From assembly GCA_009103225.1 (NCBI GenBank), contig RHPI01003578.1, positions 1 to 64,000 of the forward strand: DNA of 64,000 bases. Reading direction: 5' to 3'. Numbering within the stretch: position 1 is the first letter of the stretch; each line of letters begins with the position of its first letter. A program made the position numbers and the translations under genes. Under the pieces are notes generated by a model. The model did no database searches. It saw only the letters and a program-made list of their open reading frames with translations, and had not been told where the DNA came from. Shown here piece by piece: positions 13,101-64,000 of the stretch. This stretch comes from Chlorokybus atmophyticus. Taxonomy: Eukaryota > Plantae > Mesostigma and Chlorokybus algae.

Positions 13101-14446
13101 CTCTTCATCAATGAGAACGGACCAGTCTGGCTACTTGTGTACGTTGACGACATATCCTGGCATTTGCGGATATTGCTGCAATGACCCGAATCAAAGTGAC
13201 ACTGCATTTTGCGTTCGAAATTCGCGATCTTAAAGATGCACACTTGTTCCTCGGTATAGTCATCACCAGGAACAGAGATGCAAAGACCATTAAGATCACA
13301 CAGAAGCAGATGGTGCTGGACTTACTCAAGAAGTTTAAGGTACAGTATGCAAAGGGCAAGGCAACACCACTGAGCGTGGGAGTACAGCTACTCAAGGCAC
13401 GGGACACTACTTTTATACTCGACAAGACTATCCACCTCTACGGTGAGCTAGTAGGAAGTCTCATCTACTTGTCTATTGCTACAAGACCTGACATCGCGCA
13501 AGCCGTGGGAGTCTTGGCGAGGTACATGTTAGCACCCATCATGGAGCACTAGAAGGCGGCAAAAGGAGTTCTTCGCTACCTTGGCAGCACGGCGAACATG
13601 GGTATCATCTTTGGAAAGACGAAAGACATCACACTACATGGCTACTGTGATGCAGACTATGCTGGAGACCTCGACACGAGGAGGTCTACCACAGGTTACA
13701 CTTTCTCGATGGGAGGAGGCGTCATCAGCTGAAACAGTCGACTAAAACCGACTGTTGCTGCGTCCACTATTGAGGCCGAGTACATGGCGGCTTCATCTGC
13801 GATGAAGGAAGCACTGTGGCTTCGCAAGTTGATCACCGACCTTGGGCATGCAACGAGCTGTGTCACCAGTTTATGTGACAACCAAGGAGCACTCAAGCTT
13901 GGCATGCACCCCATCACATCCGCCAGGTCGAAGCATATTGACATCATGCCACATTTGGTGAGAGAGAGAGTTGCACATGGGGAAGTGGAGTTCAAGTACT
14001 GCAGCACTGAGGACATGCTCGCTGACTGCATGACAAAACCACTACCACCAACCAAGTTCCATACGTGCTGCATGGAGCTAGGAGTTAAAGGTAAGTTGCT
14101 CGCGTGGGAGTGTTAAAGGTACGCATGTAGGTGGCGCCTTAGCTAAACTTCTACGATCAACTTATCTTCGGGAGTTATGAAAGTCATGGTCAACGGCCGT
14201 TGCGGGAGTTACGGGAGTTACAGTCAAACTTGGTCAATGTTGACTTTGACCATTGACTTTGACTTTAACTAGTGTTGACTAGTGTTGACTTTGACAGAGA
14301 CTGACTAGTGTTGACTAGTGTTGACTAGCACTCACTAGTGTACTATATAAGACACTGTCTGTTGTGTAATACAATAAGATCCGCTCTTCACTTGTTGGCG
14401 CCACACTTGTGCGTGTGCGTTGTTGCTACTATGCAATCTCTCAATA
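10200..14446 (+). mobile_element. Decayed Ty1/Copia element (family C): gag-pol body and 3' LTR (14111-14446); its 5' end lies inverted at 31658-32115
   Basis: Gag, PR (WLLDSAC), IN (WHRRFGH, DRGAEY), RT ([13 protein letters not shown]) and RH motifs with stops and frameshifts; PPT GCGTGGGAG; TSD CACTT at 14447-14451. Confidence 0.92.
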
Positions 14447-23300: not shown

Positions 23301-24157
23301 GAGCTCGAATACGAGGTGGAAGCTATATTGAACCATAAGCTAAATGGTCGAGGACGCGCAACTCGCTATTTGGTGAAATGGAAAGGGTATGGCCCGGAAC
23401 ATAACAGTTGGGAGCCCGACAGGCATCTTACGCACTGCCGCGAGTTGCTTCGAGCTTATTGGGATTCATGTCCTGTCCCATAAACTGTGGGCTTGGTTTT
23501 TATGACAGACTGGCAGTGCAGTTTCATTACCACCCTGTCATTTCCTGCTATCTCACTGGTTACAATTACTCGAAATCAAGCCTGATCAACTTGAGTTCAA
23601 CGAGGACGTTGAAAACCTAAGTGGGGGGGAATGTAACGGGAGCAATAATAATAGGGGTATTATTGCTACCTGAATAACACATTTTGTATGAATAAGTATT
23701 TAAATATGCTTATTTATACCTCTTTTCTACGGTTCCTCGCTTATTACAGGCTATGATGCTTTATCATAGCTTAAATAAGTCCCAATGGGTGTAGAACCGC
23801 TTATTCAAGCCTATTTAGTGTCACATTCAATATAATGTGATCACTATCTCGTTAGGTACCTTACGATAGGTATCTTTGGATAGGTACCTTATCGATAGGT
23901 ACCTTATCTGAGCTGTGATTGGCTCACGCTAGATTTCCTAACTACCCTATCTGTAGGGTCGATATCTAGTTGTGAGTTAATTATCGAGAGTTATATAGTT
24001 GATATACTCTTGATATAAAAGGTCACATCAATCTGATGTGGGGACTTTCAGTTCTCTGCTCAGTGGCGGCCACGCCGCTGAAAGGCTTGTCATAGGCGGT
24101 GTGGGTATTGGGGTAGAGGATTGAAGGGGCATCACCGGCGACGGTGGTGCTGTTACA
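20332..24157 (+). mobile_element. Chromoviral Ty3/Gypsy internal-deletion derivative (gag joined to integrase core/C-terminus and chromodomain)
   Basis: 526-bp LTRs at 20332-20857 and 23632-24157 (4 differences); TSD CGCGC; PBS TGGTATCGGAGC; PPT AAGTGGGGGGGAA; VTDRDPRF..MSTAFHPQTDGQTER; chromodomain EYEVEAIL..YLVKWKGY..SWEP at ~23307-23462; no PR/RT/RH. Confidence 0.95.
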
Positions 24158-36744: not shown

Positions 36745-39700
36745 TGTTGAGAACTAGTGATGTGCATAGTGTGTGTGTATTTGCCTCGTACATACAAGTG
36801 TGCACACACTAAGGACAAGTGCAGCAAGCACGCCAACTATAGAGACAATGTGCGACCCACTGTATTAAGCAGTATACAATGTCTTATACTATGCTTTTAA
36901 GCACTAGTCAACTCTAGTCAATTCTGGTCAAAGTCAACACTAGTCAACACTAGTCAATGGTCAAAGTCAATGGTCAAAGTCAAAGTTGATCATGGTTGAC
37001 TATAACTGCCGTAACTCTTGTAACTCCCGTAACCACAAAGATTAAGCTGATTGTACCAACTACATGTAGGCGCCACCTATACATGTACTTTCAACAAGCT
37101 TTACCATTTAACACTCCCACGCGAGCAGCTTGACCTTGAATTCCATATTCTTCGCGCAAGCTTACCCACATTAAACACTCCCATGGATGTGTTGTGTTGA
37201 AGGTTAAGCATATGAGGTTTGCTAGTATAGTATAGGCGCATACATGCACACTAGTTCTTAACAGCTTATGGGTCCACACATGCTTAGAGTGTGAGTGTGT
37301 TGTGGTCGTGTAGGAAGTTGTGGTTGCCTAAGGGGAGTAGGTTGCGGGCTCTGTGTGTAGCAGAAGAGCAACCAACGCCAAGGAAGCATGGACAACATGA
37401 AAATCACAATTGAGCCACTGGACATGGACAACTATAGCACCTGAAGCATCAAGATGGAGCTGTTGCTGGTACACAAGGACATGTGGAAGTATGTGGACCC
37501 CGCGGAGGATGTGCCTTTAGGAAAGGAGGCAACCTGGGAGAACGAAGGGAGAAAAGCTTTGGCATTGCTGGGTTTGCACGTTGCTGAGCATCACTTGATT
37601 ATGGTGAGAGAGTGCCAAGGTGCAAAGGAGTTTTTAGCAAAGCTGAGAGCCACTTCAAAGCTCGCAACATGACGAGGAGGCTGCAATTGAGGCAAGTGCT
37701 GAACGCATTGCGGAAGGAGAGTGGAGAGCCAATCACCAAGTTTGTGGCGCGTGCAAAGGCGTTGTGGAAGGACTTGCTGGGTGTAGGGCACGAATTGAAA
37801 GAGCAAAAAGTGGTGTGGGTTGTGCTTTTAGGGTTGTCAACGGAGTACAGGGTGGTGGTGACCATTATGGAGTCTGCAACGGAGGAGTTGACACTTGGTG
37901 GCGTAATACCACGGCTTCTTGAAGAAGAGCAGCGCTTGCAGCAGGTAGGTTGGGAAGAAAGGCCGGAATGCAGCTACGGCTTTTATGGTAAAGAAAGGCA
38001 CTCGTGGTAACGGCAAGGAGTGTTGGCGTTGCGGAGAGCGTGGTCACTTCAAGTATTAATGTTCCCAAATGAAGACGTCCACCTACGGGCACTCATGGTA
38101 ACGGCAAGGAGTGCTGGCGTTGCGGCGAGCGTGGTCACTTCAAGTATTAATGTTCATAAATAAAGACGTCCACCTATGGGAGCACCAATAGCAAGAAGGG
38201 TGCGAGAATTGCACTCTAGGGTTATGATGTAGGTTGGAGAAGGAGGAGGAGATGGTGGCAATCTTCTTGTAATGAAGCCGGGAGGATGTAGCTTGGTGCC
38301 GAGTGCGAGCAGTAGTTGGTGGAGGAGGCGTCCTTCATACGCGGGAGCTGGTGTATTCGCGTGCCAAGAGCATGTGGTTGCTGTCTACTCAACAGCATGG
38401 TGTTTGAGCGTGATGCTTGAACATAAATATGAGAGGAGTAGCTGAGCGCGAGAAGCGTGGAGGTTACACTTTGCGAGCATGGTATAGTGCTCAAGGTATA
38501 CTATATGCAAGCGAGCAGTTTGCAGGGTGACAAGCATTGGTAGCAAGCAGCTCGAGGTGCTAGCGTCATGTATTGGAGCGAGAAGTTCCAACTCAACTTG
38601 AAGGCAATAAAGGCGTGGGAGCTTGTGTATGCTTATATGCAGATGCGGACAACAAGCTGCCTGCGTGGGAGTGTTAAAGGTTAAGCATATGAGGCTTGCT
38701 AGTATGCTTATAGTTCATGTTGAAGGTTAAGCATATGAGATTTGCTAGTATAGTATGCTTATAGTACCTGTGTGCTACCAAAGACAACTCCACAGCACTG
38801 CAACCTATAGTGTATGCAGCTCAACACCAGCAACTACTCATAGGCTAGTAGTAACTCTCACAGACCTTTGTGTCTGCGACCTCCGTCTACGCATGTCCTT
38901 CACGCGCCCTTGCAGTGGAGAGGACGGACGAACACCATCCACTACAACTCCTTGAGATCCTCACCAATGCTAGAAAGTAATCGCCATTAAGGCGTGCTCC
39001 TCCTTGGTTGCCTCATCGTGGATCCTCTTCTGGCACTCGCGAATGAAGTGGCCCCTCATCTTGCAGTAGTGACACTCTTTGTCACGTGATGGCTTCCCAC
39101 CACCTGCTTTGCTCTTGCTTCGTGTGTGTTGAGAAGATGAGGCAAAAAGTGCAATAGGTTCTCCACCATTCTCTATCTCCCGAACATCCAACTTGCCTTC
39201 CACAGCTAGCAGCTTAGGCACTACATCAGCAAACTTCAAAACCACATTGGGAGACTCCAACACAGTCATTAGCGTAGCAAAGCTCTTGCCTAAGCCAGCT
39301 AAGACTGTCCACATCACCTCTTCTTCCTTCACATCGTGGCCCACTGCTGCAAGGTCTTGCAAAAGATCCCTTGCACGCGCAATTTAAAAGTACAAATGTA
39401 ATTTTGGATTGGCTCTTTGTGCTCCAACTTCACAAGTGTCAGCTTGCGTCTCAGCTGCAACTTGCGCAAGTTGCTGCTGGCCTTGAAGAGGGTGTCAAAG
39501 ACCTCCCACGCCTTACATTCAGTCTTGCAATCCGCAATAAGAGGGAAATGGAAGTCTTTAACATGCAAGCCTATCAGCGCAAAAGCTGATTATGAGTGAG
39601 CTGTCTAGGTACCAGCGTCACCTGTTTTTGGCCGCAATGATGTGGAGGAGGTGGGGTCGACAAAACTCCAGAGCTTCTTGCGGATCAGCACCAACTTCAT

Positions 39701-44900: not shown

Positions 44901-45493
44901 CTTGATTCTGACCAAGCTTATCGGCACACAATACATGTGCACGTGAGTATAGGTTTCTGGTTTGGGGAGGGGGGCAGTGTGGATACCTGAGTTTGTGTCG
45001 CATGTTGGCCGCATGTGCGCGCACATTGCGCGCCTGTGCATCCTAGTTGTTAGCGGCTTGAGAAGGCTTTTACACCTTGCACATTCATCCCTCCCATATT
45101 ACATGATGCCGCAGTTGCCGACGTGCTGACATTTATATTGTGAGATGAAGCGAGCACCTGCATACATGTCATCGCTGTATGTTTCCCCTACCAGCCGACT
45201 AAATATTAGCAACGCCCATGCACCTGCGGATACGCAGTTAGATTATTGTGGCTTAGTCCACCTGAAATCTCGATATATAGCCCTGATGTAAAGGTCGTCA
45301 CCATCAGTCGGCGGCATATGAGTTCATGAAGCGCATGAAATGCGCGCCCATGAACTCAAGAACTCGTTAATGAGTTATGAGACTCTTGTGCCCCTAGTGC
45401 CTCGGGCACTAGGGGGCACAAGCACTCACTAGGCGTGAGTGTGAGCCACAAGCTCCTTATCTAGCTTGAAACCCTAGCACGGCGGCGCCATCC

Positions 45494-48400
45494 TTGGCGA
45501 GGGTGGCGAGTGTGGTGAGGGGGAAGGGGGACCTTCACCATGGACAAGAGGTTGACGCGGGCGCAAGCAAGCGCCCAAGGGCAAGCGAGGACGTGGAAGC
45601 CTCGGCGGCGGCGGCTCTCATGGCCTCCAACCGCTTGGCAAAGGCGAGAAGTTCGCGTCGCCAGACCTTGAGTGAGGAGGAGGAGAGGCGAGCGGAGAGT
45701 GAGGAGAAAAGAAAGCACCCCCCCGTGGTGGATGGGGAGGAGGTGAACAAGGATGGTGATGGTGATGGTGATGGTGATGGTCATGGTGATGGTGATGATG
45801 AGGATGATCATGACGACGACGACCCGCCCGCGGTCACTTACAAGCGTAGAAAGAGGGCGGCAAGCCCGGTTTCCAACGCCTCCACCACACCCACGGAGGC
45901 CATGGCGAGGAGGTTGGAGGAGTTGGAAGCGGAAAACATCCGCCTCAAGCGTGGAAAAGCGCCCGCCATCCCTCTTGATGAGCCCATGGACGAGCCCAAC
46001 CATCCACTACTTGTGAGCATCCTTCGCCGCGAGAGCGACTCCAACACTCCTAATGCTCGGGTGGCGGCGATGTGCAACCGCTACACCGAGCCCGCGACCC
46101 CTTGGAAGGAGAACTTGAAGAAGCGGGCTCGGCAACATGTGGATGTGGCGGCTCACATCGGCGCGGCAGCGAGCTCATTCGACCGTGTGCCCGCTCACTT
46201 TCTCAACGATCTTCATTTCGCTCATGGTCGCCGGGAGAACATGAAAGGTGGGCTCATTCTTTGTAGCGTCATGTGCACGAGCGTCCATACAAACATCATC
46301 ATGTGGGTGCGGACTTGGTCCAGGCCCACTTGCACATGCGTGCGCTATGGGCCTTATAAAGGCGCTTCCCCTGGTCAACATAGATGCACGAGATGCATTT
46401 GTTCCGCATCCCTCCTCCCCCCATGTCCGGCGGGGGGGGAGGGCCCGCACTTAACACCTTTGCATGCTCACCCCTGTATTCACATTATGACTACCTCACA
46501 GCAAGGTAACAAGCACAACAGGGCACATCATATGCATCCGCATCCGCAGGGCATGTGGTAGGTAAAGTTGAGGGTGGGATGTGGGTGCGCTTGGCGCTGG
46601 ACCCTATGGCTTTGAGCCAGTGTGCTGATGCAACTCGTGTTGCTTACATGTGCTTTGTGCGCAGCGTTTGAGGAGGTATTCAAACAGTTTTACTACTTAG
46701 AAGTAGCCAACAAACACAACCGACGCCGAGGCGAAGCGCCTTAAGAAGGCAATCAAGGAGGCGGCTGCGGCGCAGCCCAAGCCCAAGGCAAAGCCTGCCT
46801 ACACTCCTAACAAGGGGCGGGGCCAGTACCCCCCTCGCTACTCTGGGTCCTACGCATCTGGTGCGGGGAACACCAGCTACAGGACCGCTCCCATGCAATC
46901 TCAGGCCGCTTCTACAGGGGGCCAGCGTGACACCCGCACCTGTTACAACTGTGGGGAGCCTGGGCACCTGCGTGCCTATTGCCGTAAGGCCTCCACTGAC
47001 CGTGGGGGCCGGTAGAACAGCTTTGTAGCTGATGTGACAGCCCCGTAGCTGTACACTTGCACTCGTTGATGCTGTAGCCCGGTGGGGCACCTTTTTGTGT
47101 TTGCGACTGCTATATTAGTGAATGAAACTGCGAGCGTGGTGAATGAAAGTGGAAGTTTGGTGGTTTAAACTTGGCGAAATCACCATTTTGCTTGTAACTT
47201 TGTTTTGTGGTCTCAGAACACCCCTAAAACACTCTGGGATCATCACCATGAGGCGGAGAGGCTTAGATCGATTAAATTAGAATCGGTTTCAGACACTGTT
47301 TGCGCCTGTTATGGTTAATTGGTGATGCTAAGGGCTTTGGGCCCTTGAACGCCATTGAACATCAATGCTACTCGGTGGTTGCCTTTATGAGCACTAGAGC
47401 TTTGCAATGAGCCCGTTCTCATGGCATTTGGACAGTATATGCAATAGTTGTGGCGGTTTAGGTGTTGCAATGTGCACACGCGGGTACGCTAGGAGTGCAT
47501 CCATAGTAACACCAGTTGTCTACAGGGGCGTACACTAGCACGGAGGAGAAACTTGTGCACGACTGGATGAAGCATCATGAGTTTGCGCGTGTGCCTGCAA
47601 ACCTCACCGTTGAGGGACCTTACATGCGTCATCGATTGCGTAATGCTCTTCCTGCATGGCGCGCATTCGGCGAGTCTACTATGGTCTTGTCTTGAGTGGA
47701 GTATGGCTACAAACTACCGTGGGCTCAAGACCCGCCGCCAGAATGGGCGTTCACCAACCATAAGGGGGTACACGAGTTTGCGGACTTCACTGCAGCGGCC
47801 ATTGCCAACTTGGTTCATAGTGGGGCTGCACAAGAGTGTGTCACGCCCCCCCTCGTGGTGAGCCCACTCAATGTGGTGGATGATGGGCGCAAGCTACGCC
47901 TCATCATGGACTTGCGCTATGTCAACTCCTACTTGGTGAACACGCCGTTCAAGTATGAAGATGTGCGCAGCATCCTAGACTTGCTGCAATCCGAGGACTG
48001 GTTGTTCTCCACGGACTTGAAGTCTGGATATCACCATGTGGACATTCACCCCGCCTTTTGGGGCTATCTGGGGTTCTCGTTTGCGGGCAAAGTGTACAAC
48101 TTTTGCTCGTTGCCATTTGGGTTGAGCACGGCGTGCTTTGTATTCACCAAAGTGATGAAGCAATTGGTGAGGCGCTGGCGTGTGCAAGGCATCCGTGTAT
48201 TGCCCTAAATTGATGACTTCCTCTTTGCTGCTCGTTCACGGGCAGCACATGCTTCCACCCTGGCTGTGGTGCAAGCAGACGCAGCGTGGTGCGGGTTAGT
48301 AATCAACACCAAGGCACAGACTGTGCTTAGCAGAGTCATCGTCTTCCTCGGCTTTGTGTGGGATACACACGCTGGCACCATATGTGTCCCGGGCAAGAAG

Positions 48401-49024
48401 CGGGATGGTTTGCTCAGAGACTTGCAGCGCGCCTTTCGAGATACGCGCCATGTGCCGGTGAAGTTGCTAGCCCGCATCTGTGGCAAGCTGCAATCCATGT
48501 TCCTAGTGTTGGGTCCTGCCGTCAAACTCATGACTTGGCATACACGCCGATTGATTGAGACCCGCCGCTCATGGAGCTTTCACTTGGTGCTTCGCCAACC
48601 AGAGATCAAGGAGTTGACGTGGCTGCGAGAACACTTTGCGGAGCTCAACACGGCACCCATTTGGCCTACAGTGCAGCCGGACATTGTGCAGTTTGTGGAT
48701 GCTAGCGGCACCGGTTGGGGACTAGTGCGCCATGGCACAGCTACCCCGGTGGCGAGAGGCACATTCACACCCGATGAGTGCTTGACTTCATCGACATACC
48801 GCGAGCTGTTGGGACTCGAGCGTGCCCTGCTCACCGTGGAGGAGGAGCTACATGGACGCACAGTGCTATGCTATGGGGATGCCCGCAATGTGTATTACAT
48901 TATGCGCAAAGGGGGCAGTGAGGCCGAGCACTTGCAGCAAGTGGCATGCCGTATCTTCTTGCATTGCCATCGGCATTGCATCCGCTTGCATGTTGAGTGA
49001 TTGCCACGTGAGCTGAATGAGGAG
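45494..49024 (+). mobile_element. DIRS-type retrotransposon, 3'-truncated (gag with intron(s), RT, RNase H; no tyrosine recombinase visible)
   Basis: Gag CCHC CYNCGEPGHLRAYC (~46940-46985); RT RLRNALPAW..GYKLPW..SPLNVV..RLIMDLRYVN..DLKSGYHH..LPFGL..*IDD; RH DASGTGWG..SSTYRELLG..GDARNV..LPRELNE. Confidence 0.9.
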
Positions 49025-50715
49025 GAGATCTATCGACCCTTGCGACCCCCCAGCATGAGCTGTGTGTGTCGCATATAACTCGTGTGTGAGTTCGTTTACA
49101 TAAAGGGACTGACCTAGACTAATAGGTACCTATTGGATACCCCTCAATCAAGGAAAGGGGACTTGACCTAACAGTTAGGTACCGGCGACTGTTCCTTGAT
49201 GGTGCTTAACTATCAGGTAACTATGGGGTACCTTATGGTACCAAAGTACCTAACGGTAATGTCCTCAATACCTACCGGTACCGTTCAGTCATGAGCAGGT
49301 GCTGCATGCATGTAATTGTCGTCAACTGTAAGAGACGGTGAGTCACAAGCTTGACCAATCCATAAAATAAAAATAGCAATAAATTACATTAAATTTTGAT
49401 GCTATAGTGTAAACCACACTGAGCTACTACTATTACTACTACTACCCTATACTCAGCCGTCGCTCCTCTGCCGCAGCCGCCTCGCCGATCCTCCTTGTCA
49501 CGCCAATTACCCGACCATACCAGTCCTCCTCGAGCATGCCTACATGTAGCCCCAAGCCCAGGCTACCAGCATCAAGACCGCGCGCGCCCCAATCCACTGC
49601 TAGTTACTTCGTACTCTATGCAGCATGTAGCTAGGGCTACTCTATAAACGTCTCTATAAAAACCGCGTGTAGCTGATCAGTTAGGAATCTATTATTAGCT
49701 CATGTGCTATATCAAGGCTTAGGACATTTTTGTAGCAGCATACGGCCTCAATGTGACCGTTGACCTAGTGCCCATGTGGCATTGCACAGTCATGATTTGA
49801 CGTGTATATATAGGAAGTCATGTCACTCGCTAATGACACTATGAGTATTAAGAGTAGAGACTCTGACTGTAAGCTTGTGAAGCAACTTGAACTGGAAGCA
49901 CACCATCCCAATTGCCAAGGACTGCCTTACTGCGTGTTACACAATGTATGTTTTTGTGTGCTGTGCTTATTTTTGATGTGAGCTTGGCGGTGATGTGCTT
50001 GCTGCATCAGTCAGAACATAGCAACTCTAAGTTGCTTGTTCATTCACCTCACTCAACAATATAGTACATCATCCACTTATGCAAAAAATTGTGTATACAG
50101 CACTACCTATTGTAGTGGCTTGTTTACTCACAGTGTCATCCTCTCTGCTCAAGTGAGTGCATCGCATTCTGCATCAATTTGTGCAGTTTGTACCTGGGGA
50201 TACATTTTCGTGTATCTCATTTCGTTATCATTGTCATCACATAGTGCGCACACAAGCACTTGTGTGGTGAGTGGTAGCAGCATCGAGACAGTTGGTAGAG
50301 CACAAGCACTCTACCCTGCATACACTTTCACCTGTGGACTACCTATATGAGCAGACCCACCCCGTTAGTTCTCTCCAATAGACGAGGGTGACCTCAGCAG
50401 CTAAAGCCCAACTTCCAATCTCGCCTACGAGCGGACCAGCGACGGGAGCAACGATCGCAGCAGCAAAGGCTCGCAGTTTGTCTCCGGGGTCACTCTGTTC
50501 CGGTCTACCCCTCGCCGACGAGCTTCCCCACAATCATCCGACACGCGACAACTACGAGATGGACTCTTTTAGCTCAACCACATCCCTGCGCTTCTCCGGA
50601 CGTGCTGGCACTACCTCGCTGACAAATTCATGACTAAATTCCATTCCAAGATGCGACATCAACCTCTAAAGAACAAAGAGAAGTCAGATAAGATTTTCAC
50701 ACTGCTGCTCGGTGT

Positions 50716-51760
50716 TTGGACTATGAAGCACGCAATGCCTGGAAGTCTGTTGCTAAACTGCATCCAGTTGATGGCTATGGCGAGCTCGCCAGCATTACAG
50801 CATCTACGTCACTGCGCAATTCAGTAGCCGTTTCTCCACCTGCAACTCCCGCTGCAGTCATTGGCTTGTCCATAGCTGCAGCCATTGACGGTGCAAAGGA
50901 GGTGGAGCCTGAGTTGGTGATTGTCAACCTAACCCCTACAGAGATTAAGACCAAGACGGCCGCACGACGGGCCTGGATCCTGGACCAGTCCGCTTCTATC
51001 TTTGAGAAACAATAAGCTGCAATCGATGAGGTGGGCACAGTTCTACCTCTGGCAACACCTAGCTCTTGTGCGGGAGGCAGTGCTTTTACCCTCGGGCGAG
51101 TTGCACTGCGCGCACTAGCCATCACCATAGGTGCTGCCATCTCTGACTCCCCACTTAAGGACCTATACGCTGCACTTCATTGCACCTTCCCACCTAAAAC
51201 TACAAAAACAAAGTGAAGGAGCTGAGACGGTTTGAACGCAAGCCCAGCGAGGACCCTCTACGCCTGTACTCCAGACTGGAAGAGCTGTTGAAGGACATTG
51301 ACTACAAGATTGTCAGTGGCGAGGCTGCTGCAGTGGTGTCTGTTCATGAGTTGGATGCCACTCTGAGCGAGTCGACGCGCCTGACCCTAAACTACAGCAG
51401 GCCCCTTGGCTACACGCTCAATGAAGCTTTTCAGACTGCACAAGCCATCCACAAGCGCTTGGTGTATGAGAAGGCAGTGCCGGACACCAATCGCAGTGCC
51501 TCACGGCCTGTAGATAGCACAACTACTAAGCCTCCTCGCTGCGAGCGTGGCCGGGACGCTTCACCGAGCTCGCAACGAAGGGAAACGATCAACTTATACT
51601 GCTTTGCCTATCCGTGTGCGGTGTCATCGCTGTGGACGGCATGGGCACTATATAAAGGAGTGCACCGAAGCATACTCAACCCTGGTCTGCAACTACCGTC
51701 ATAAGACGGGCCACTTTAGTCAAGCTGCTGGTTCAAGTTCCCTGAGTTAAGACCAGCCAA
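50716..51760 (+). pseudogene. Gag-like region with CCHC knuckle(s)
   Basis: KELRRFERKPSEDPLRLYSRLEEL (capsid-like); CHRCGRHGHYIKEC at 51622-51663 and a degenerate second knuckle (CNYRHKTGH). Confidence 0.7.
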
Positions 51761-52610
51761 CAGCTACAGCAACAACTACTCTGGTGGCTACAACAGCAAT
51801 GACACTGGGGGCCACTACGGCAACAACTCTGGTGGCTACAATAGCAACCACACCGGAAATCATATTAACAACAACAACTACGCCAATGCTCGCAAGGAAG
51901 AGCAGGGCTACAGGGGGAAGGAGTCCTCCTCAGCGCAAGGGACTGGAAGGACGTCCGCGCGCTGCTATTGTCGCCAAGGCTTTAGCCAACCCGCCAGCTA
52001 ATGACCATATTGCTCCTCCCATGGCGCGTATTGCACGCTTGAAAATAGACAAGGAGGAAGACTACCGCGCCTGCTACTCTGCTCGGTGGGCACTGATGGC
52101 TCCAAAGCGCACAAGAGCCACGAGCACTCCGCCACGTGTTCAACCATCTCGGCGAGCACGAGGGGAAGCTGCAACATTGTCAACAGCTACCTCCTTTAAA
52201 GCCACCAGTGGTACTGCATCAGCAACAGCCCCATTGGCTACGACGTCAACTCCGTCAACGTCAGCAGCAACTACTCCAGTTGCACCAGGAGTTGGTATAT
52301 GAGTGGGCACTGTGACACTAACACCGGTAAGCGCGATGGCCACAGCCACTGCTATCACCGACTTCGCAGCAATAAAATAAAACGCACAAATCCCGCTCCA
52401 GGTACAGGACCACTTGTATCAGAGAGCGTTGAAACCGCTCTCGCGCCACTGACCGGCGCTATCGCAACCACTATCAGTGCTAGTGTTGTCGAGTTCGCTG
52501 CCACTGCAGCGACGCGCGCAGCTACGTTGCCCGTCCTCGACATCACTCAGGCTGTCGCGCGAGGTCAGCAAGCTGAGCGCGCATGGGAGACCATCATGCA
52601 TGAAGTAGAT

Positions 52611-53037
52611 TGTGAAAGGTATCACATGGGTGATGCTTGTATCCGGTCAGCTTGCCCTCCCACACAAGAGTCGAGAGTCGAAGGTATGTGCTGAGCACGT
52701 GGACTCCGGACTTAGCAAGACGGTCGAGCCAGGACGGACTCCGGACTAGATGCTGAGTAGAGCGTTGGGAGAAACCGCGTAGCTTTGTGAATACGTAAGC
52801 TTAGTAGGCGTGGCTTAGCTTGTTGAAAAGCTCTGGTCGTGAGCTAAACATCACAACTTAAAGCGCGTTGAAAGGCTGAGTAGTCGCGCACGTGGTGCTT
52901 GCAAATGTAGACGTGTGTAGAAACTGGTGGGGTATAAAACCCCTAAACCCCTGGACTTGTATGGCATTAAAGGCAGTAGCAGTCATGCTCTTGTGTTGAT
53001 GTTGTTGGCGTGTCACTTGCACGTGTGTATGTAAACA
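52611..53037 (+). mobile_element. Solo Copia LTR (same family as 27399-27856) nested in the Gypsy element
   Basis: TG..CA ends; TSD TAGAT (52606-52610 and 53038-53042). Confidence 0.9.
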
Positions 53038-54649
53038 TAGATCCCACTACCATTGCTTTTGGGCGAGGAGGAGAGCGCACCACGCACGTTGAATGCAGTA
53101 ATTGTGTCTTCTCACTGCATGAGCCTCACACCCTGCCAGAGCAGACTCAGCGGCAACTGAAGGATAAAATCCTTGCCAGCACGGCGCATCCTATGCGAGA
53201 CCGCGTCTTTGTGGTCATAACACCTGTTGTGCTGGAGTTGGCCCTGCAGCTGTTCTAAACTTTGCATGACAACATGCAGAACGCGCCACGCCAGCGCATA
53301 CACACCCGTCGCAAGCCTTTCGAGCCAAGTTAGCTGAACACGTATCCTGACCGGCAACCCAATATGCAGCAGCACATCAGTGAGGCATCCAACATGTGTT
53401 TTGGTAACGACGAAGCATGGAGGCCCCTCAGTACTGCTCGGCCTCACGAGCGATACACCGCTATGGAACAAGCGTTCACCTGGCGGTAGGAACAAACTGC
53501 AGCTATCAACGCAAGAGCGCAAGCCTTTGCTGCTGCTTGCACTACCGTTCTTCAACCAACAATTGCTGGCCCATCATTCAGCACGACATCTTTTGCCGTT
53601 GCGCCCGACATTGACCAGGTGAGGGCGCTGGCCCAACAAATAAGGGAGGTAATCGCCTCGCTGCTACCCGCCTTGGTGGAAGACTTGCCTGATGATAAAC
53701 GAGATTCAGAGAGAGGCTACCTCACACCACAAGGTGTACACAACAGGATGGAGCAAGCTCAGCTGGAGAACAGCAAGTTCGCACTGCCCTGTTGCGACAA
53801 GCGACCATGCTACATCAAAAAGAAGGCATCGGCCTGAGACGGATGATTGGGATGTGAGCAAGTGGCAATGCTGCGCGAGCGACACTAGTGACTTGGCTAG
53901 TCACCAATCATCCCGTACTCCCTCTGATCGCATTCGGCACCAATTCGTTATGCTTGGACGCCTTCCTTCGCTTACTACGGCAAGCCTACCACGAGGTTGC
54001 TATGAGTGGAAGTAGCGCAACAACGCGGACGCATCGCAGGAACTTATGAGTAGCACGTCCATCAGCCAGAGATTTACCGCACTGTGCGTGCACGAGCAAC
54101 TATGGTGCTAAAAGTGGGGGAGATTAATGGCAGATGGGATGCCTACATGGTTGGGATCCTCAGGGTTGCCACTATTGCTCATGACAAAAAAGCGCGACTC
54201 TTGCGCGTAATGTATCCAACCCATGCTTCAGAACCATCGCTGCAGTGATGTGGTCGATAACACAACATCCACATGGGAAGGTACACTGGTCAGGGAGGCG
54301 GCTCATGCAGTATACTAAACTTATGTGGAAAAACAGGCTGCACGGGAAGCGAGCCCACAAACACCCGGTCCTCAAGGGTTTTCCCCACAGCCATTGGCTA
54401 CGCCGCCAGGTATGACCCCGGCCATATAGAGGCGCAATCCCCCTGCGCCACAACCATGGCAGCTATAGGCAGCATCGCCAGCACCCAGGCCGCAGCGGAC
54501 ATACCAACAGCCAACACAAGGACGGTTCGGCCACGCAGCGGACAAGGCGGTTCTCAAGACTCAGCCGGCCGAGGGGCGCTAGCCGCATTGCGCTCGACAC
54601 CATCGGAGGAGATTGTAGCAGCAGTCACCCCACGCACACGCTACCGACG

Positions 54650-55015
54650 CTTTAAGCGGCTGCGCATCAACATCAACGTTGCGATGATCGCCAATAAAAG
54701 CACGCATATTACCATCAATGGGCGAGCACCCAAGCGCGTGATGTTAGATTCCGGAGCCCATCCTGTCATAATTAGACGTTACCTCGCACGCGACCTCGGC
54801 ATTACCAGCGCTGATGCCCTGCCCATACGTGCTTGGCACAGCAACCGGCAGCCGGGACAAGGATTGACATCACCAAGCAGGCCCTCTGCATTCGCTTTAC
54901 AGGGTTGGACCCTTCCAACAACACCGAGGTCATACATAAGTGTGTGGTCACACTTGCAGGATTCTTCGACCTGCTGCTAAGACAGGACTTCAACTTTCCT
55001 GTTGCATGGGGCTGA
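54650..55015 (+). pseudogene. Retroviral-type aspartic protease
   Basis: ITINGRAPKRVMLDSGAHPVII and FDLLLRQDF (DLLLG-type motif). Confidence 0.85.
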
Positions 55016-55414
55016 ACTGCTGGACAGAGAAGGCATGATTTCGTCCCTATTGGATGAGGAGGATGGAGAGGTTCAAGGATACCTGCCTCTCGAGCTGGTG
55101 GCTCGCACTCGCTTTTAATAAAAGTTAGCTACGACAGCCACCTACAAGTCGGCTTCAACAACCACTAACAGGTCAGCAGTGGTAGTCACTAACCAGGACT
55201 CTCCTATCCCATACAATAAGTCCTAGGAGGATGCCAGCAAAGAAGTGGCCCAACAGAAACCATCTGAACGCTGTTGGCGCGCACAAGTGGTCGCACATTT
55301 ACTACTAACCAGACCACGGCTCACTGCACGGTTCCCTCTCTATAATGATCAAGTTGTAGTCCAGGAGCAACATCAGGTGGCCACCGGAGTAATAGAGTTT
55401 TTCGCCGACAACAA

Positions 55415-56390
55415 GGCATCACCGTGTTGAAACTGTTTGAAGGTATAGGTAGTGGCCTTGCCGCTGTCCTCAACACCGGCGTGCCGGTCACCGAGTACCT
55501 CTACTATGACCGCGTGTGGTCCTGATCAACACGCACAGATTGCCCTGCGCCACCACTTTTGCCACCTACACATATACTACCCGCAGCAACTGCCACTATC
55601 AGCACTACAAGGCAGTCTGAAGGCACTACCACAGGACATTCGTTTAATCACTGCGGATCACCTCCTGGCAATGGGCAACATCGACCTGCTGATAGCAGGA
55701 TGAGATTGTCAAGGACACTCCAGTACAGGAAGAGGCCAAGGTCTCATTGATCCTCCCTTGCAACTGTCTTTAGAGCTGATGCGCGTCATTATGGGTCTAC
55801 TGAGCAACCAGAGTTTCAGGCCTCTGGGGTACATCATCAAAAACGTGCACTCCGAGGACGATAAGCGTTATCACGTGGTCAACAGCTTTCGACAGGTGTG
55901 TTCCCTGTTAGAGCATCTTCTTAAAAGTAACGCAGCGCGTCATGGATCCCGTGCTCATTGTGTCCGGGTCAAGTGGACCAACCTGGCTACAATCAAGGAG
56001 CTTTTCGCCGCTGAATATCTGCACAACAGTTGTTTACGCGATTGCACCGTCGATACTGTTTTGTATCCTTGGCGCACAGCACAGCTGGTCACGCCACATG
56101 ATGACCAGTACTTCTACCGGTGCAACCAACCTGATCAACCGCGCCGTGCGCTCCCCTATCTAGTGCTTTACCCAGGATAATACACCTTCCGCAACAAAGG
56201 CGAAGGTGTCAAATTTCAACACAAGCCAGCTTGAGGCACCCAGCACTTGTGAGCGCGAACACGCCATGAGATTCTCTTTAGGCACTATCACAGGTTCTAT
56301 GCTGACCGACAGTCAGCAGTGTCAGTTGTTGGGGCGCGCCATGGATCATAGCATCATGGTGTGGTTGTTGGAGATGTGCTTTTTCTCTCA
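55415..56390 (+). pseudogene. C5 cytosine DNA methyltransferase catalytic domain, DNMT3-like, decayed
   Basis: Motif I GITVLKLFEGIGSGLAAVL; motif IV DLLIAG*DCQGHSSTG (Cys codon 55707-55709); motif VI GYIIKNV; motif VIII NAARHGSRAHCVRVKWTNL; motifs IX-X EREHAMRF..LLGRAMD. Confidence 0.88.
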
Positions 56391-56749
56391 AAGATCGCCA
56401 TGTGTCCTTTCAGGAGCTCAAACACCGGGGGGGGGGGGGGGGGGGNNNNNNNNNNNNNNNNNNNNNNNNNNNNNNNNNNNNNNNNNNNNNNNNNNNNNNN
56501 NNNNNNNNNNNNNNNNNNNNNNNNNNNNNNNNNNNNNNNNNNNNNNNNNNNNNNNNNNNNNAACATGGGGGGGGGGCGAATCGCGTTTAAAAGATCAAAG
56601 TTGCACACACTGCCCTCGAGATCGCCCACATGGAGGAGCAGGCAGCAGGCGCTGTGGACATTCCAGTAGTCGCCAACGCTACCTCTTAGCCCCACGCCAT
56701 CGAAGCGCAGGCTACATGCCAGATACGAGAACAACTCGAGGCTCTCCTC

Positions 56750-59700
56750 AACAAGTGGAGGAGCCAGTTCAGCTTCGGCGTGTAGGAGCTGATCTGCTCA
56801 ATTTACCAAGTGGACATCGAGTTGATGGACCCCGAACTGGTGTTCCGATGACAGTACAGACTTTCCAAGTTTTAAGAAAGCTTGGTGGAGCAGAGGTGCA
56901 AGGCGCTGTTAGATGCAGGCCTGATTAAGGAGACATTATCGGACTTTGCGTCCGCGACCGTCATGCCCCTTGAAGAAGAATGCAACAGGCAACTGGACAA
57001 ACCGGCGTATGTTCAGTGATTACCGCCCCCTCAATAACAAGACCAAGCAAGATAGATACCCAATGTCTACTGCACAAGGTATTTTTAATGATGTAGGAGA
57101 CTGTACAGTCTTCAGTATCGTGGACATGCGCTAAGGGTACTACCACATTGCCATTAAGCAGAAGGACAAGCACAAGGCCTCCTTCTGGGGCAACCCACAG
57201 CTGTACCAGTGGAAGGTCATGCCCTTCAAACTGAACAATGCTCTTGCCAAGTTCCAGCGTATAATGGACAAAGCCCTCAAGGGATTTGACTTCGCACGCT
57301 GCTACATCAACCACATCCTCATCTTCGGTCGCAGCAATGATGATGAGAAGCATCTTGGGCACATCGAGGTGGTGCTACAGAAACCGAAGGAAGTAGGGAT
57401 GACGGTGCACCCCGACAAGTGCACCTTCTTTACCCACAATGTACCGTATCTAGTGCACATGATCGTGCCCCACGGTGTATATGTACAGCAGGCCAAGGTG
57501 GAGGCACGGGTGGCCATCCCTTGCCTCGCAGATCTCAAGCGACTACGTGCTTTTCTCGATCTTGCCAACTACTATAGACGGTTCGTCAAGGACTTCGCAA
57601 AGATCGTGTGGCCACTTAATGAGCTGAGGAAGGACACGGAGTTCATGTGAAAAGAGGCACAATAAAAGACCTTTGAGGAGTTGAAGCTCCAACTTACCAC
57701 ACCTCCCATTCTTCAGCGACTTGACGACAACATATCATCCTGCACATAGATTGGCGCAAGCTTGGCATGGGAGCAGTGCTCGTGCAGCACGATGACAACA
57801 AAAAGGAGCGCGTAGTGATGTATACCAGCCGCAGCACCAACAGCGCTGAGGCCAACCACAGCAGCTATAAGGGGGAATGTCTCGCCGTAGTATGGGCCAT
57901 CTCCTCCTTCCGCCCCTTTCTGTTTAGTTGGCAATTCCAACTGATCACCGACCACCAACCACTGAAGTGGCTGATGACCAACCAGCACCTGACAAGCAAG
58001 CGGGCACGGTGGGCACCACTGCTGCAGGTATAACTTTGAGGTGGAGCATCGGGTAGGCCTATTTCAGGATGCAGACGGCCTTAGTCGCAACCCTCACCTT
58101 AGCACCAACGATGTGACAAAAGCCCGACACGAGTTGGGCCTGCAGCCGCACCTCTAAATGTAGCGGCCTTGTTTGCTGTCGCTGCACTACGTCCAGGACG
58201 CAAGACCTAGGCCACTAAGGCAGCAGCAGACGAGGACGTGCCTTCTCTTGGGCCCATTCTTACCTTCACCGTCACCGCCCCTTTATAAAAGGAAGCGCTC
58301 GCCACCGACCCTGAGGTGGACAATGAGGAGTTGGCATCCACCGACACACGACAGGACATCTGGATTGACAACCCGTCCCTCGCACTGCTCCAAACTGGAC
58401 AATTTCCAGCAGGCATGAGCGCGCGCAAGACGGCCGCATCAGTTAATGCACTTAGCACTATTGTTGGGCCGACGACAAGCTGTACCGACGGATACAGATT
58501 GAGGACAAGAAGGTCCCAGCACCAACTGCGCGAAAAGGCATCGTCGCTGCTCTTCACACCGAGCTCGAACACTTCGGTGTCAAGCGCACGGCCAGTCTGG
58601 TCAAAACTCAGTACTTGTGGTATGGGGTGCACAAACAGGTGCGCAAGTTTGTCAGCGACTGCCAGCAGTGTGACATGGTCCGCGCGAGCCTCAACACGCG
58701 TTACGCCACCTTGCATCCCCTCCCCATCTCGGAACTGTTCTACCGCTGGGGAGTGGACATCCTCAGGGACTTATCGCCCTCAGCACGAGGCAACCGCTAC
58801 ATTGTCATCATGATCGAGCACTTTTCCAAATGGGTGGAGCTAGTGCCCCTTCCCAATAAAAGCAGCGAGGGAGTAGCCCAGGCTTTCCTCTCCCATGTAC
58901 TCAAACGCTTCTGCAGCTGTGCTGAAGTCATCACCGACTAAGGTACGGAGTTCAAAAGAGCCTCCGGAGGAGCCTTTGACAAGCTCGTGGACAGATACTT
59001 CATCAACCATCGCCGCACTTTACGCGACCATCCACAAGACTCTGGTCTTGCTGAGCGTACCGTGCAGATCATCAAGAAGGCTTTGCGCAAGTACGTCCTC
59101 GACTACGAGAAGAACACATGGGATGACCACCTCCCATGGGTAGCACTGAGGTACCGGCTGTCCAAGCAGGCAGCATTGCGGGAGTACATCCCGTACTATT
59201 TGCTATATGAAAGGCAGCCATCGCTCCCTTTGCGCGCACAGCAGGAAGTCGACAGAGTGGTGGACAATGTCGACAACCCGGACGAGATGCTGTATGATCT
59301 AATAGTGCGCAGCGCACTGTTTGAGCACACTGTCCCCATGGCCTTCAACAACCGGCGCGCTGCTCAGCACCGCGACACGCTTCGCTACGAGCGTGTGCGC
59401 AGCGGTTCTTACAAGGAGCGAGAACGCTGCTTCCACCTAAGAAACTTCGGCTACCGCATGGCGGCCACACACGACACCCTCGACACCTCCGACAGGCACG
59501 CTGTCTATAAGGTATTGAACGTGTATCCGATAGGGGTACTGGACTTTCAGAGACAACAAGGCGAGCACACGAAGGACGACAAGGTGAACTGCGCGCCCTG
59601 TCATCGTCCCCACGTCGCTGGCTTCAGCAAGATCCAGCACCCTCGATCATTGCGAAGCACCCGCTGCGAGAAATATGGCAGTGCCGACAACGACCCGGTG

Positions 59701-59826
59701 ATGCTGTTATGCGAAGGCTGCAACCAAGGCATGCACAACTACTGCCTTGACCCATTAGACAAGGTGCCGCTGTGGGAGTATTCGTGCGATGACTGCCGCA
59801 TCAACGGTCCTCCACACAGTTGGTAA
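56750..59826 (+). pseudogene. Gypsy RT, RNase H and integrase with a C-terminal PHD finger (59665-59796)
   Basis: RMFSDYRPLN, DMR*GY, VMPFKL.N, GAVLVQ..YSSYKGECLAVVWA..TDHQPL, RWGVDI, TD*GTEF, GLAERTVQ; CEKYGSADNDPVMLLCEGCNQGMHNYCLDPLDKVPLWEYSCDDC in the integrase ORF 58987-59826. Confidence 0.9.
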
Positions 59827-61249
59827 CAGCTGAGTCCAAAAGCAGGAGGCTACCCCAGAATATCAGGGCCGTGGCTTGTTGACTGTGTGTACTACAGCAC
59901 AATAGGTACAGCAAGGAGGAGAGCGTGACCAGCTCTACTACTGACCGATCCTCACATAGGTTCATCCCTGCGCCTATGCCTATGGCTGAGGGGTTGTCTT
60001 TGTTTGTGTTGCTCTAATGCTGCGTGTAGCACCAGCATGCCCACGGCATGAGCGCTCGTCGGCAGTGTGCCCGAGACGGCATGACCCTCAATCATGGCAG
60101 GCACGACGCTTGGCCTGGTCGGCAAGGGCGTAAACACAACGGCATCATACACTATGACACATGATACATATGCCGCTTGGCCTGGTCGGCAAGGGCATAA
60201 ACACAACGGCATCATACACTATGACACATGATACATATGAACAAACTCACCTACCATGCCATTGCCGCCGCCACCGCCCTAGGCTGGCCTGGCCTGCAAG
60301 AAGAACGGTTGGGTTGCGCTGTTGCGCTTAACATGACATCATGCATGCAACTTAACTACTATGTGTACACACACATTCACAAACTCACCAATTGTCGCCG
60401 CCGCCACCACCGCCGTCACTGCCACCGTCACCGTTGCCGCCGCCGCCGCCGCCGTCACCGCCGCCGCCGCACAACTGTCTTCAATTATGAAGTCGTTCGG
60501 CGTTTAAAATGCTGCTTTTCAACTGCTCAACGGCTTCAAGTTTAATGGTATGATTGTACCATAAAAATAGCACAACGCCTCCATTGTACAATCAAATTAT
60601 GAGCTCCGTAGATGATACTTTGATGGGACTGTTGTACCATCACAATGGTGCTATTGTTTCATTAGGTGTGCCGAGTATAATTAACCGGACTAATAGGTAC
60701 TCGCCGCCATCGCTCGTTCCTCTTAGGAGACTTAGTCGGAACTTGCGTGGTCTTGCTTGTTAATGTAGGTTAATCGCCACTGCGGCTTGTGTACGGCCGG
60801 CGGCCGCGGGTCAACTCTGACTCCTTGGTATCGACCGTCGCCATAAGGGCCTGAACATACACTTGATTGCCATAACAGGTAGGTTGCCATTGCGGAAGCT
60901 GTATGATCGGCGGTCAAAATATATTGCTGTCACGTTATTACCGATAGGCAATAGTCCACTGTACTGTACAATAGGCGGTCGGCAATGAAGTAGGGTCCAT
61001 AGTATGCACCGGCAGTGCGTTCATTCCCTTTATGGTCCAAGTTGTTTGGGTTCGTTAGGGCTAAATAGGATTAGGCACCCCGACAGTCCCTCGTTCTCTT
61101 GTCAGCCACCATGTAAGTTTTGCAACGGTTACAATTATTCATGTTGCCAACAGACTGCCATATGTTGTGAACATTGTCCACAACATGCTTCAACCCAAAC
61201 TTTAAACAGACGACGCTATGCCACATCAATCGAGCAGCATGTATATAAT

Positions 61250-62782: not shown

Positions 62783-64000
62783 TGTTACAGATAAGTAACA
62801 CGACATTAGGGCCTTAACATAGGTTAACGGTCTTAATGTGGCTTAATAGGCTGTATAATCCCGTTGGGACCCTTATTTAATCTTAAATAAGGGTGGGAAA
62901 CCTCTATGGAGGTAGCACACCGTTGCATTCCCCCCCCACTTAGGTTTTAATGTCCTCATTAAAGGGTTAGCAAAGGCCCCCCACGAGAAAAAGAACGAAA
63001 GTAGTAAGAGAATCAGGGCCGAAGCGGTAAAGATGTTTGCCAGCACCCTTTTACCGTCCGCGTGTAGACAGTGTACTCCAGTACCCCCGAAAAATCTCCT
63101 GGCAGTTGGTAAGATTCTTTTCGGGCTCCCATGCATGGGAGCCCGAAACATATGTATTGTGCTCAACACCATACTCTTTCCATTTCATCAAGTAAGACGG
63201 CGCGCGTCCGCGTTGAGGCTTACGATGACTCAGGATTGCTTCCACCTCAGACTCAAAAGTATCGTCGCCATCCACTGCAACGGGGGGTGGAGGAGGTTAA
63301 ACCCGACCGTCAGAACGGTACGGTTTCAGTACACTCATATGAAACACATTGTGAGTGCGTATCGATTTTGGCAAGTTCAAACGATACGCGTGAGTGCCGA
63401 CCCGATCAATCACTTTAAACGGGCCTATCCAGCGAGGGAAAAACTTGCGGGTACCCACTCCCTTAATGGATATGTTTTTGGTGCTGAGCACCGAACAGCC
63501 CACATCGTAGTTGGCCTCTCTACGATGCGCATCAGCATGGGCTTTTTTTTCTGTCTTGCGCTGCGCGCAAACAGTCCTTTGCCAATGCTAACCTATCCTG
63601 CATGGCCGAAGCCATCTCGCGTGCTACAGGTACGCGAGTTATGTCGGTAGCTGGCAACGTAATATTTGCAGGACTCAATGGATGCACTCCATAATTCAAG
63701 AAAAACGGAGTTTCCTGCATACTCTCTTGCCATGCATTGTTAATTGCGAACTCAGCCATTGAGAGATAAACATCTCAATTTCATTGGTTCGGATTCTCAT
63801 AATGCCGGATGGTTTCCTCAATTATTTGATTGGCGCGCTCTGTCTGACCATCCATCTGCTGATGGTAAGCTGTGCTCATGTTCCGCTGAATATGTGAGAA
63901 GCTGCATAGCGACTTCCAGAACTGAGCTACAAATCGCGGATCGCGATCAGACACGAAGTTACGAGGCAAGCCGTGTAACTTAAACACAAAGGCGACAAAA
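62783..64000 (-). mobile_element. 3' end of a chromoviral Ty3/Gypsy element (integrase, chromodomain, PPT, short 145-bp LTR 62783-62927); continues beyond the window
   Basis: VSDRDPRF..MSTAYHQQMDGQTER; RWIGPF; EVEAILSH..YLMKWKEYG..WEPEKNL; PPT AAGTGGGGGGGAA. Confidence 0.9.

What the first reader, a model, noticed from the sequence alone, without database searches (positions are those of the whole stretch)
54650..59826. Ty3/Gypsy element carrying its own DNMT3-like cytosine methyltransferase between protease and RT
Seen: C5-MTase motifs I, IV, VI, VIII, IX and X lie in order at 55415-56390, same strand, between the DSG protease and the RT. The defects (TGG>TGA, E>K in ENV, frameshifts) look like post-insertion decay. 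Motif IV reads G(W)DCQ rather than the usual PC. Known: motifs I and VIII resemble DNMT3 (VLSLFDGI; DAKEVSAAHRARYFWGNLP), and retrotransposon-borne DNMTs were reported in Symbiodinium and Klebsormidium (de Mendoza et al. 2018), so the concept has precedent. Inference: the enzyme would be released from Pol and could methylate the element's cDNA or target site. If the host is not Klebsormidium, this extends the distribution or marks an independent capture.
Basis: partly seen in the sequence, partly recalled or inferred. Interest (0 to 1): 0.88.

Follow-up and report, generated by a model that had tools for sequence, protein, structure and literature searches.

The report
Gypsy retrotransposon carrying DNMT3-like methyltransferase
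This is a dead copy of a jumping gene, likely from a green alga, whose replication protein contains a DNMT3-like DNA methyltransferase domain; it belongs to a family published only from streptophyte algae, found here across green algae and liverworts, and in intact copies the enzyme would likely methylate each new DNA copy before it inserts.

Summary
Confirmed. A decayed Ty3/Gypsy element (about 49.5-60.0 kb) carries a non-permuted, DNMT3-like C5 methyltransferase domain (55412-56391) between protease and RT, followed by RNase H, integrase and a PHD finger. It is not a secondary insertion: intact relatives carry the domain in the same place, DNMT and RT trees agree, and contigs of two public runs cover the whole element and bridge the gap to RT. 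It is not an independent capture either: it falls in the family of Klebsormidium KnitGypsy-Dnmt3. This copy is dead (stops, frameshifts, lost catalytic Glu and Arg). The odd motif IV is a family trait: Glu or Asp precedes Cys in 101 of 168 relatives, all of which keep Cys, Glu and both Arg. Named streptophyte relatives (Klebsormidium, Closterium, Marchantia) have the domain between protease and RT; named chlorophyte relatives (Hariotina, Pleodorina, Volvox) have it between RNase H and integrase, suggesting one capture and one relocation. Activity is unshown; the Klebsormidium enzyme was inactive in yeast. The host was not identified. The scan has noted this family before in other genomes.

The parts
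49500..60025 (+). Decayed Ty3/Gypsy element, approximate extent (left edge within 49404-49887, right edge near 59925-60025); no terminal repeats found
   Evidence: Summed contig depth in two DNA runs is about 9-215 across this span, against 1-8 just right of it and 7-15 just left of it; no LTR pair
51198..51750 (+). gag-like region with CCHC zinc knuckle (51619-51669), broken
   Evidence: Pfam zf-CCHC 21.5 bits, cut-off 20.8; weak tblastn to N-termini of PR-DNMT relatives
52611..53037 (.). Solo LTR of another family inserted in the gag region (TG...CA, 5-bp target duplication TAGAT)
   Evidence: Sequence; 77% like 27399-27857; skipped by contigs of other copies (joints)
54654..55080 (+). Aspartic protease (DSG at 54747), frameshifted
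   Evidence: Pfam Asp_protease_2 E 1.2e-5; tblastn to relatives
55412..56391 (+). DNMT3-like C5 cytosine methyltransferase domain, motifs I-X in normal order; 2 stops, 2 frame changes, Lys at the ENV Glu and Cys at the first motif-VIII Arg
56446..56561 (.). Assembly gap (116 N) flanked by G runs; bridged in other copies by 8 letters
   Evidence: tables 5, 5c and 8 (X1 contig, depth 45, 187 letters on the shorter side)
56696..57725 (+). Reverse transcriptase, broken (3 stops in 253 codons, frameshift near 56970)
   Evidence: Pfam RVT_1 E 2e-12; 51% to P0002
57728..58027 (+). RNase H
   Evidence: Pfam RT_RNaseH E 2.5e-30; 61% to P0002
58390..59600 (+). Integrase (H2C2 zinc domain, DDE core, C-terminal part), 3 stops
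   Evidence: Pfam Integrase_H2C2 E 4.6e-12 and rve E 4.6e-4, under its cut-off; 41% over 476 aa to P0069
59665..59796 (+). PHD finger at the C-terminus of integrase; stop at 59824-59826
   Evidence: Pfam PHD 25.5 bits, cut-off 24

Best explanation
This is a dead copy of a green-plant-lineage Gypsy retrotransposon whose polyprotein contains a DNMT3-like cytosine methyltransferase domain; in intact copies the enzyme would likely be cut out by the element's protease, packaged in the particle and methylate the new cDNA before integration. Shown: domain order, DNMT3-type fold of an intact relative, family-wide retention of the catalytic Cys, Glu and Arg-x-Arg, purifying selection in relatives, and co-descent of DNMT and RT. 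Inferred: proteolytic release (both positions seen in the family, PR|RT and RH|IN, are the usual Gypsy processing boundaries, recalled knowledge), catalysis, cDNA as substrate, and the benefit (pre-marking new copies so they pass as host DNA or land in a tolerated chromatin state, with the integrase PHD finger likely reading histones at the target). Also inferred: one capture in the family ancestor, with the protease-DNMT-RT layout older and one move of the domain behind RNase H in the chlorophyte clade.
For: Intact relative P0002 has DNMT, RT, RH and INT in one ORF. 228 clusters at 50% identity match at E<=1e-30. Of 168 domains, 26 sit PR-DNMT(-RT), 95 RH-DNMT-INT, 44 unresolved, 3 far behind PR. 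Cys 160/161, Glu 161/161 and the two Arg 160/161 each are kept among P-C and E/D-C members. Profile ranks DNMT3A E 3e-25 > DRM2 6e-13 > HhaI 3e-9. AF2 model pLDDT 97 matches DNMT3B best: Foldseek E 2e-19, VIA Z 28.8, rmsd 2.6 over 271 residues, then DNMT3A 27.4, M.MpeI 26.0. dN/dS 0.09-0.12 in the 3 unsaturated pairs of 6 among loci L081-L084. DNMT and RT-RH trees both put the window on the PR-DNMT side. Related retro-DNMT3s of Symbiodinium DIRS methylated CG in yeast (PMC5890265 section 10).
Against: The only tested member of this family, KnitGypsy-Dnmt3, gave no methylation in yeast; the authors call this inconclusive because DNMT3B also failed. The Pro before Cys is replaced by Glu/Asp in 101 of 168 members. 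This copy cannot work. Contig depth over the DNMT (9-37 in X1) is lower than over RT (90-125), which may mean diverged or DNMT-less copies, although the tool warns depth is no copy number. Three RT relatives inside the clade (P0301, P0315, P0330) show no DNMT in the protein held. Decay sites show no CG enrichment (7 CG, 7 CHG, 11 CHH of 25, background 35/20/45%). Nesting of the chlorophyte layout has only SH-aLRT 87-88 with a distant viral outgroup, and no host DNMT3 was in the trees.
Confidence: 0.6

Rival explanations
1. The domain is an active methyltransferase but acts on the integration site or host chromatin, riding with integrase and its PHD finger, rather than on cDNA inside the particle.
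For: PHD finger on integrase; in 95 of 168 relatives the DNMT lies directly upstream of integrase (median linker 75 aa, n=77).
Against: In this copy's layout the domain is separated from integrase by RT-RH. In loci L081-L084 it sits before an in-frame stop, 4 of 4, so it would be made in Gag-like excess over integrase. K. nitens has an ordinary plant-like methylome (PMC5890265).
Confidence: 0.17
2. The domain binds nucleic acid or SAM but no longer methylates DNA (pseudo-enzyme, or RNA or hybrid substrate); Glu in place of Pro marks the change.
For: No activity of KnitGypsy-Dnmt3 in yeast; E/D-C in 101 of 168 members.
Against: E/D-C members keep Cys, Glu and both Arg in 101 of 101 and depart at conserved columns no more than P-C members (mean 5.6% vs 5.9%). 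The state switches about 17 times on a FastTree tree. DNMT5 is active with Ser in that position (bioRxiv 10.1101/2021.10.01.462825, passages). The named K. nitens member held here (GAQ93235.1) has P-C; whether it is the copy assayed is not known.
Confidence: 0.15
3. A host or viral methyltransferase gene was inserted secondarily, or captured independently, in this copy or lineage.
For: Lower contig depth over the DNMT than over RT; long terminal branch of the window's domain.
Against: Same position in 26 relatives including K. nitens, Closterium and, separately, Marchantia; congruent DNMT and RT trees; a high-depth contig joins the DNMT end to the RT start; viral C5 MTases are distant (best 31%; separated at 100 SH-aLRT). 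A true secondary insertion in the same element, the solo LTR, shows its own termini and target duplication.
Confidence: 0.03

Closest known systems
KnitGypsy-Dnmt3 of Klebsormidium nitens (de Mendoza et al. 2018, PMC5890265; read: abstract, sections 10 and 11 whole, passages of section 9 with Fig. 4 legend, passages of the peer-review file, Supplementary Data table; figures and main supplement not available)
   Same: Gypsy Pol with an intronless, non-permuted Dnmt3-like domain. K. nitens GAQ93235.1 is PR-DNMT and falls on the same side of the DNMT tree; its neighbour KFL_013780010 is in the same RT clade.
   Different: Only 31% identical in DNMT and 41% in RT. Motif IV is GFPCQ there, G*DCQ here. 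The DIRS-like repeat structure reported for KnitGypsy was not found in this window. The paper and a 2026 preprint place the family in K. nitens or 'streptophytes' only.
SymbioDIRS-Dnmt3 and SymbioLINE-Dnmt of Symbiodinium (same paper)
   Same: Retrotransposon-encoded C5 methyltransferase; the DIRS enzyme methylated CG de novo in yeast.
   Different: Different retroelement classes and independent captures per the paper; sequences not compared here.
EpiLTRs of Cymbomonas and Euglena (bioRxiv 10.64898/2026.05.21.726589; passages read)
   Same: LTR elements with a DNMT plus a chromatin reader.
   Different: Their DNMT is reported as sister to DNMT4, comes with a DAM domain and a chromodomain; here DNMT3-like, no DAM or chromodomain hit, PHD reader.
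Mammalian DNMT3A/B/C catalytic domain and plant DRM2
   Same: Best sequence and fold matches; motif order as in DNMT3, not permuted as in DRM.
   Different: 21-26% identity; no PWWP or ADD domain; W-E/P-C instead of S-P-C in most members; extra helical segment before motif III.

Membership tests
Ty3/Gypsy LTR retrotransposon | Pol order PR-RT-RH-INT | tested here: met
   Pfam hits in that order, tblastn
Ty3/Gypsy LTR retrotransposon | gag upstream of pol | tested here: met
   zf-CCHC 21.5 bits at 51619-51669, weak matches to relatives' N-termini; region broken
Ty3/Gypsy LTR retrotransposon | Paired LTRs, PBS, PPT, target duplication | tested here: inconclusive
   No terminal repeat found (best local score 31 vs shuffled maximum 40); family homology ends about 200 bp after the pol stop, so the copy is probably truncated
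DNMT3-type C5 methyltransferase | Motifs I-X in non-permuted order | tested here: met
DNMT3-type C5 methyltransferase | Closest similarity to DNMT3 among solved C5 MTases | tested here: met
   25 of 25 hits; profile ranking; fold of relative P0002
DNMT3-type C5 methyltransferase | Pro-Cys dipeptide in motif IV | tested here: not met
   Asp-Cys in this copy; E/D-C in 101 and P-C in 60 of 168 relatives
DNMT3-type C5 methyltransferase | Catalytic Cys, ENV Glu and Arg-x-Arg intact in this copy | tested here: not met
   Cys kept; Glu and first Arg replaced; kept in 160-161 of 161 relatives
DNMT3-type C5 methyltransferase | Phylogenetic placement with host DNMT3/DRM | not tested
   No DNMT3 sequences were held as alignable records; only viral outgroups used
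DNMT3-type C5 methyltransferase | De novo 5mC activity | not testable with these tools
   Published yeast assay of the K. nitens enzyme was negative and inconclusive
KnitGypsy-Dnmt3 family | Dnmt3-like domain within Gypsy Pol, homologous to the K. nitens element in both DNMT and RT | tested here: met
KnitGypsy-Dnmt3 family | DNMT in the same ORF as RT and RNase H | tested here: inconclusive
   N gap here; piece lengths of the bridging contig put DNMT end and RT start in one frame, but whether a stop lies between is not visible. One ORF in P0002 and P0069; in-frame stop in L081-L084
KnitGypsy-Dnmt3 family | DIRS-like split repeat structure | tested here: inconclusive
   No repeats in this copy; an unchecked note reports A-ORFs-B-A-B elements elsewhere in this genome
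KnitGypsy-Dnmt3 family | Purifying selection on the DNMT | tested here: met
   In relatives only: dN/dS 0.09-0.12 in 3 of 6 pairs, the other 3 saturated

The most novel reading that the evidence does not exclude
One ancient Gypsy clade spanning chlorophytes, streptophyte algae and bryophytes has carried a single captured DNMT3 since early in green-plant evolution, moved it once between the two Pol cleavage boundaries, and repeatedly swapped the 'invariant' catalytic-loop Pro for Glu, giving a gated methyltransferase that works only inside the particle on reverse-transcription products. It would be the main DNMT3-type enzyme in chlorophytes and a self-methylating retroelement testable in Volvox-type models.
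Probability: 0.3. Interest if true: 0.78.

Novelty: new member of a known kind. Interest (0 to 1): 0.48.

Why it matters
The element itself is a dead copy of a described type. The family picture matters more. In the five searches aimed at it, only two papers name Gypsy-DNMT3 and both confine it to Klebsormidium or streptophytes. Here at least 228 clusters match, with named members in Closterium, Marchantia, Hariotina, Pleodorina, Volvox and Haematococcus, in two layouts. Why a transposon keeps the enzyme that silences transposons is an open question, and intact natural P-C and E-C variants in genetically tractable hosts make it testable. An active Glu-Cys enzyme would be a second exception, after DNMT5, to the Pro-Cys rule.

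Tried and rejected
No whole genome is held, so copies, termini and host genes could not be examined. Host identification failed: 18 other ORFs gave only transposon domains or nothing useful and the Atlas could not read new sequences; 'likely green alga' rests on the relatives and an unchecked note. No LTR, split repeat, PBS or convincing PPT; a 9-letter word seen near both edges was judged chance by eye. No RNA holder listed. Viral contigs held only distant C5 MTases (80 loci kept of 487 matches, best 31%). The metagenome scan gave 25 loci, 8 of them family members. The CG-context test of decay was negative on 25 sites. The careful RT tree did not finish; the quick tree on 49 of 118 rows, chosen by me, is quoted; no AU test was run. 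In the 118-row tree the window had no starred group. The Atlas hit for the K. nitens domain only said DNA_methylase. PMC9940879 (passages) describes a PHD-bearing Chlamydomonas Gypsy without mention of a DNMT; bioRxiv 10.1101/2021.11.30.470311 and PMC7022712 (passages) added nothing. No complex prediction was run. The main supplement of PMC5890265 (alignments in its Fig. S13) was too large to read and may already show motif IV variants; bioRxiv supplements are closed.
Full report
Observation. The three-frame translation shows the six motifs in order between 55415 and 56391 on the + strand, broken by two frame changes and two stops. Pfam places a protease upstream and RT, RNase H, integrase and a PHD finger downstream, and a zinc knuckle at 51619-51669. 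The middle 235 residues, read with X at stops, score 19 bits against PF00145, under the cut-off of 22, but hit only DNMT3A/B/C in the PDB, 25 of 25, and one intact protein among 882 candidates, P0002, at 41%. P0002 holds DNMT, RT, RNase H and integrase in one ORF and passes PF00145. Its RT, RNase H and integrase match the window at 51, 61 and 48%.

State of this copy. It is dead. RT has 3 stops in 253 codons and integrase 3 in 478; the DNMT departs at 14 of 49 columns conserved in at least 85% of relatives (median 4%; one relative, P0232, departs more), 10 of the 14 reachable by C>T or G>A alone. The ENV Glu and the first motif-VIII Arg are replaced. Two DNA runs hold the organism (single contigs of 493 and 568 letters with 3 differences each) and many diverged copies. 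The window has A/T where those copies have G/C more often than the reverse (574 vs 368 places in X1; 653 vs 443 in X2). The context of the 25 best-supported such sites is not CG-enriched, so methylation-driven decay is plausible but not shown.

Extent and anatomy. Summed contig depth rises within 49404-49887 and falls at about 60025, giving a repeat of about 10.5 kb. Depth is not copy number, and it is lower over the DNMT than over RT. No terminal repeats were found. One X1 contig of depth 45 joins the DNMT end to the RT start across the N gap with 8 letters; its piece lengths keep both in one frame, but its sequence was not shown, so an internal stop cannot be excluded. A 427-bp solo LTR with TG...CA ends and a TAGAT duplication sits in the gag region; the DNMT shows no such marks in the repeat search.

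Family. The P0002 domain finds 1523 clusters at E<=0.001 and 228 at E<=1e-30; the best 150 were held. Of 173 pooled proteins, 168 with at least 240 aa of domain were analysed: 26 PR-DNMT(-RT), 95 RH-DNMT-INT, 44 without flanking domains, 3 far behind the protease. Named PR-DNMT members: Klebsormidium nitens GAQ93235.1 and Closterium spp., Marchantia polymorpha. Named RH-DNMT members: Hariotina reticulata, Pleodorina starrii and Volvox reticuliferus; a Haematococcus lacustris domain groups with them though my profile found no RT in that protein. Most members are unnamed, so the split by host lineage rests on few names.

Trees. An unrooted FastTree of 169 domains separates the layouts without exception and puts the window with PR-DNMT (0.993). 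RT-RH gives the same split (7 vs 49 rows, 100). Rooted on 10 other Gypsy RTs, both layouts form one clade (39 rows, 100) with the RH-DNMT side as a subclade (99), and the window groups with P0002, L082, P0279, P0242 and a Calypogeia RT (95), apart from Klebsormidium and Closterium (quick tree, 49 of 118 rows; sampling seeded by P0002). Rooted on 14 viral methyltransferases, the RH-DNMT group (97) nests inside PR-DNMT at 87-88. This favours one capture and one relocation, with modest support and no host DNMT3 in the tree. Three RT relatives in the clade lack a detectable domain, so losses probably occur.

Enzyme. The family profile ranks DNMT3A (E 3e-25) above DRM2 (6e-13) and HhaI (3e-9). The AF2 model of the P0002 domain (pLDDT 97) matches DNMT3B first in Foldseek and VIA (Z 28.8; DNMT3A 27.4; M.MpeI 26.0). 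The residue before the catalytic Cys is Glu in 58%, Pro in 36%, Asp in 2%. The 101 E/D-C members keep Cys, Glu and both Arg without exception and are as conserved as the 60 P-C members; the state changes about 17 times on the tree. DNMT5 is active with Ser at this position, which its authors link to weaker, regulatable SAM binding. dN/dS is 0.09-0.12 in 3 measurable pairs of 6 among relatives L081-L084. In those 4 of 4 loci the gag-PR-DNMT frame ends in an in-frame TAG followed by CAR-YYA, which I recall as the tobamovirus-type leaky-stop context.

Mechanism. Most likely the domain is released by the protease, packaged, and methylates cDNA in cis, as de Mendoza et al. proposed. The linkers (median 115 aa after PR, 72 before RT, 187 after RH, 75 before INT) and the two positions at processing boundaries fit a separable module. 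None of this is shown, and the K. nitens enzyme was inactive in yeast. Rivals are target-site methylation and a non-catalytic or RNA-directed role.

Verdict. Real, and a new, dead member of the KnitGypsy-Dnmt3 kind, not an independent capture. The scan has noted the family in several other genomes and a split-repeat Gypsy of apparently the same clade in this genome; these notes are unchecked. What I did not find in print is the chlorophyte range, the two layouts and the Glu-Cys catalytic loop. Interest 0.48.

Noticed in passing
window 52611-53037 and 27399-27857: Solo LTR (TG...CA, 5-bp duplication TAGAT) inserted in the gag region; a 77% similar copy lies at about 27.4-27.9 kb on the other strand.
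   Followed up: yes
L081:4661, L082:5083, L083:2081, L084:4509: In-frame TAG followed by CAR-YYA between the gag-PR-DNMT and RT frames in 4 of 4 relatives; would give the methyltransferase in Gag-like amounts.
   Followed up: partly
P0014, P0018, P0021, P0314 and 90 more proteins: Second layout with the DNMT between RNase H and integrase, the commoner one in the search; named members are chlorophytes.
   Followed up: yes
P0330, P0315, P0301: RT relatives inside the clade without a detectable DNMT; P0330 has about 500 unassigned residues between RNase H and integrase, possibly a degenerate domain.
   Followed up: no
P0322, P0323, P0339, P0342: Neighbouring Gypsy proteins with PF05869 (Dam methylase), three of them also with a PHD, in the same RT search; probably the DAM-LTRs of the 2026 preprint.
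   Followed up: no
window 5046-9034 (-), 10715-14112, 14941-15561, 37588-39383: Several Copia elements, one with long open gag, integrase and RT frames, and many copies of an AGTCAA-rich repeat.
   Followed up: no
window 21740-23483 (+) and 63051-63999 (-): Chromodomain Gypsy fragments; the first joins gag directly to the integrase C-terminus, like an internally deleted copy, between near-identical repeats at 20332 and 23632.
   Followed up: partly
window 45470-49000: RT and RNase H-like frames that resemble a DIRS-type element (recalled motifs), ending just left of the Gypsy element.
   Followed up: no
window 60107-60239: Two 67-bp tandem copies, 98% alike, just right of the element's edge and outside the high-depth repeat.
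   Followed up: no
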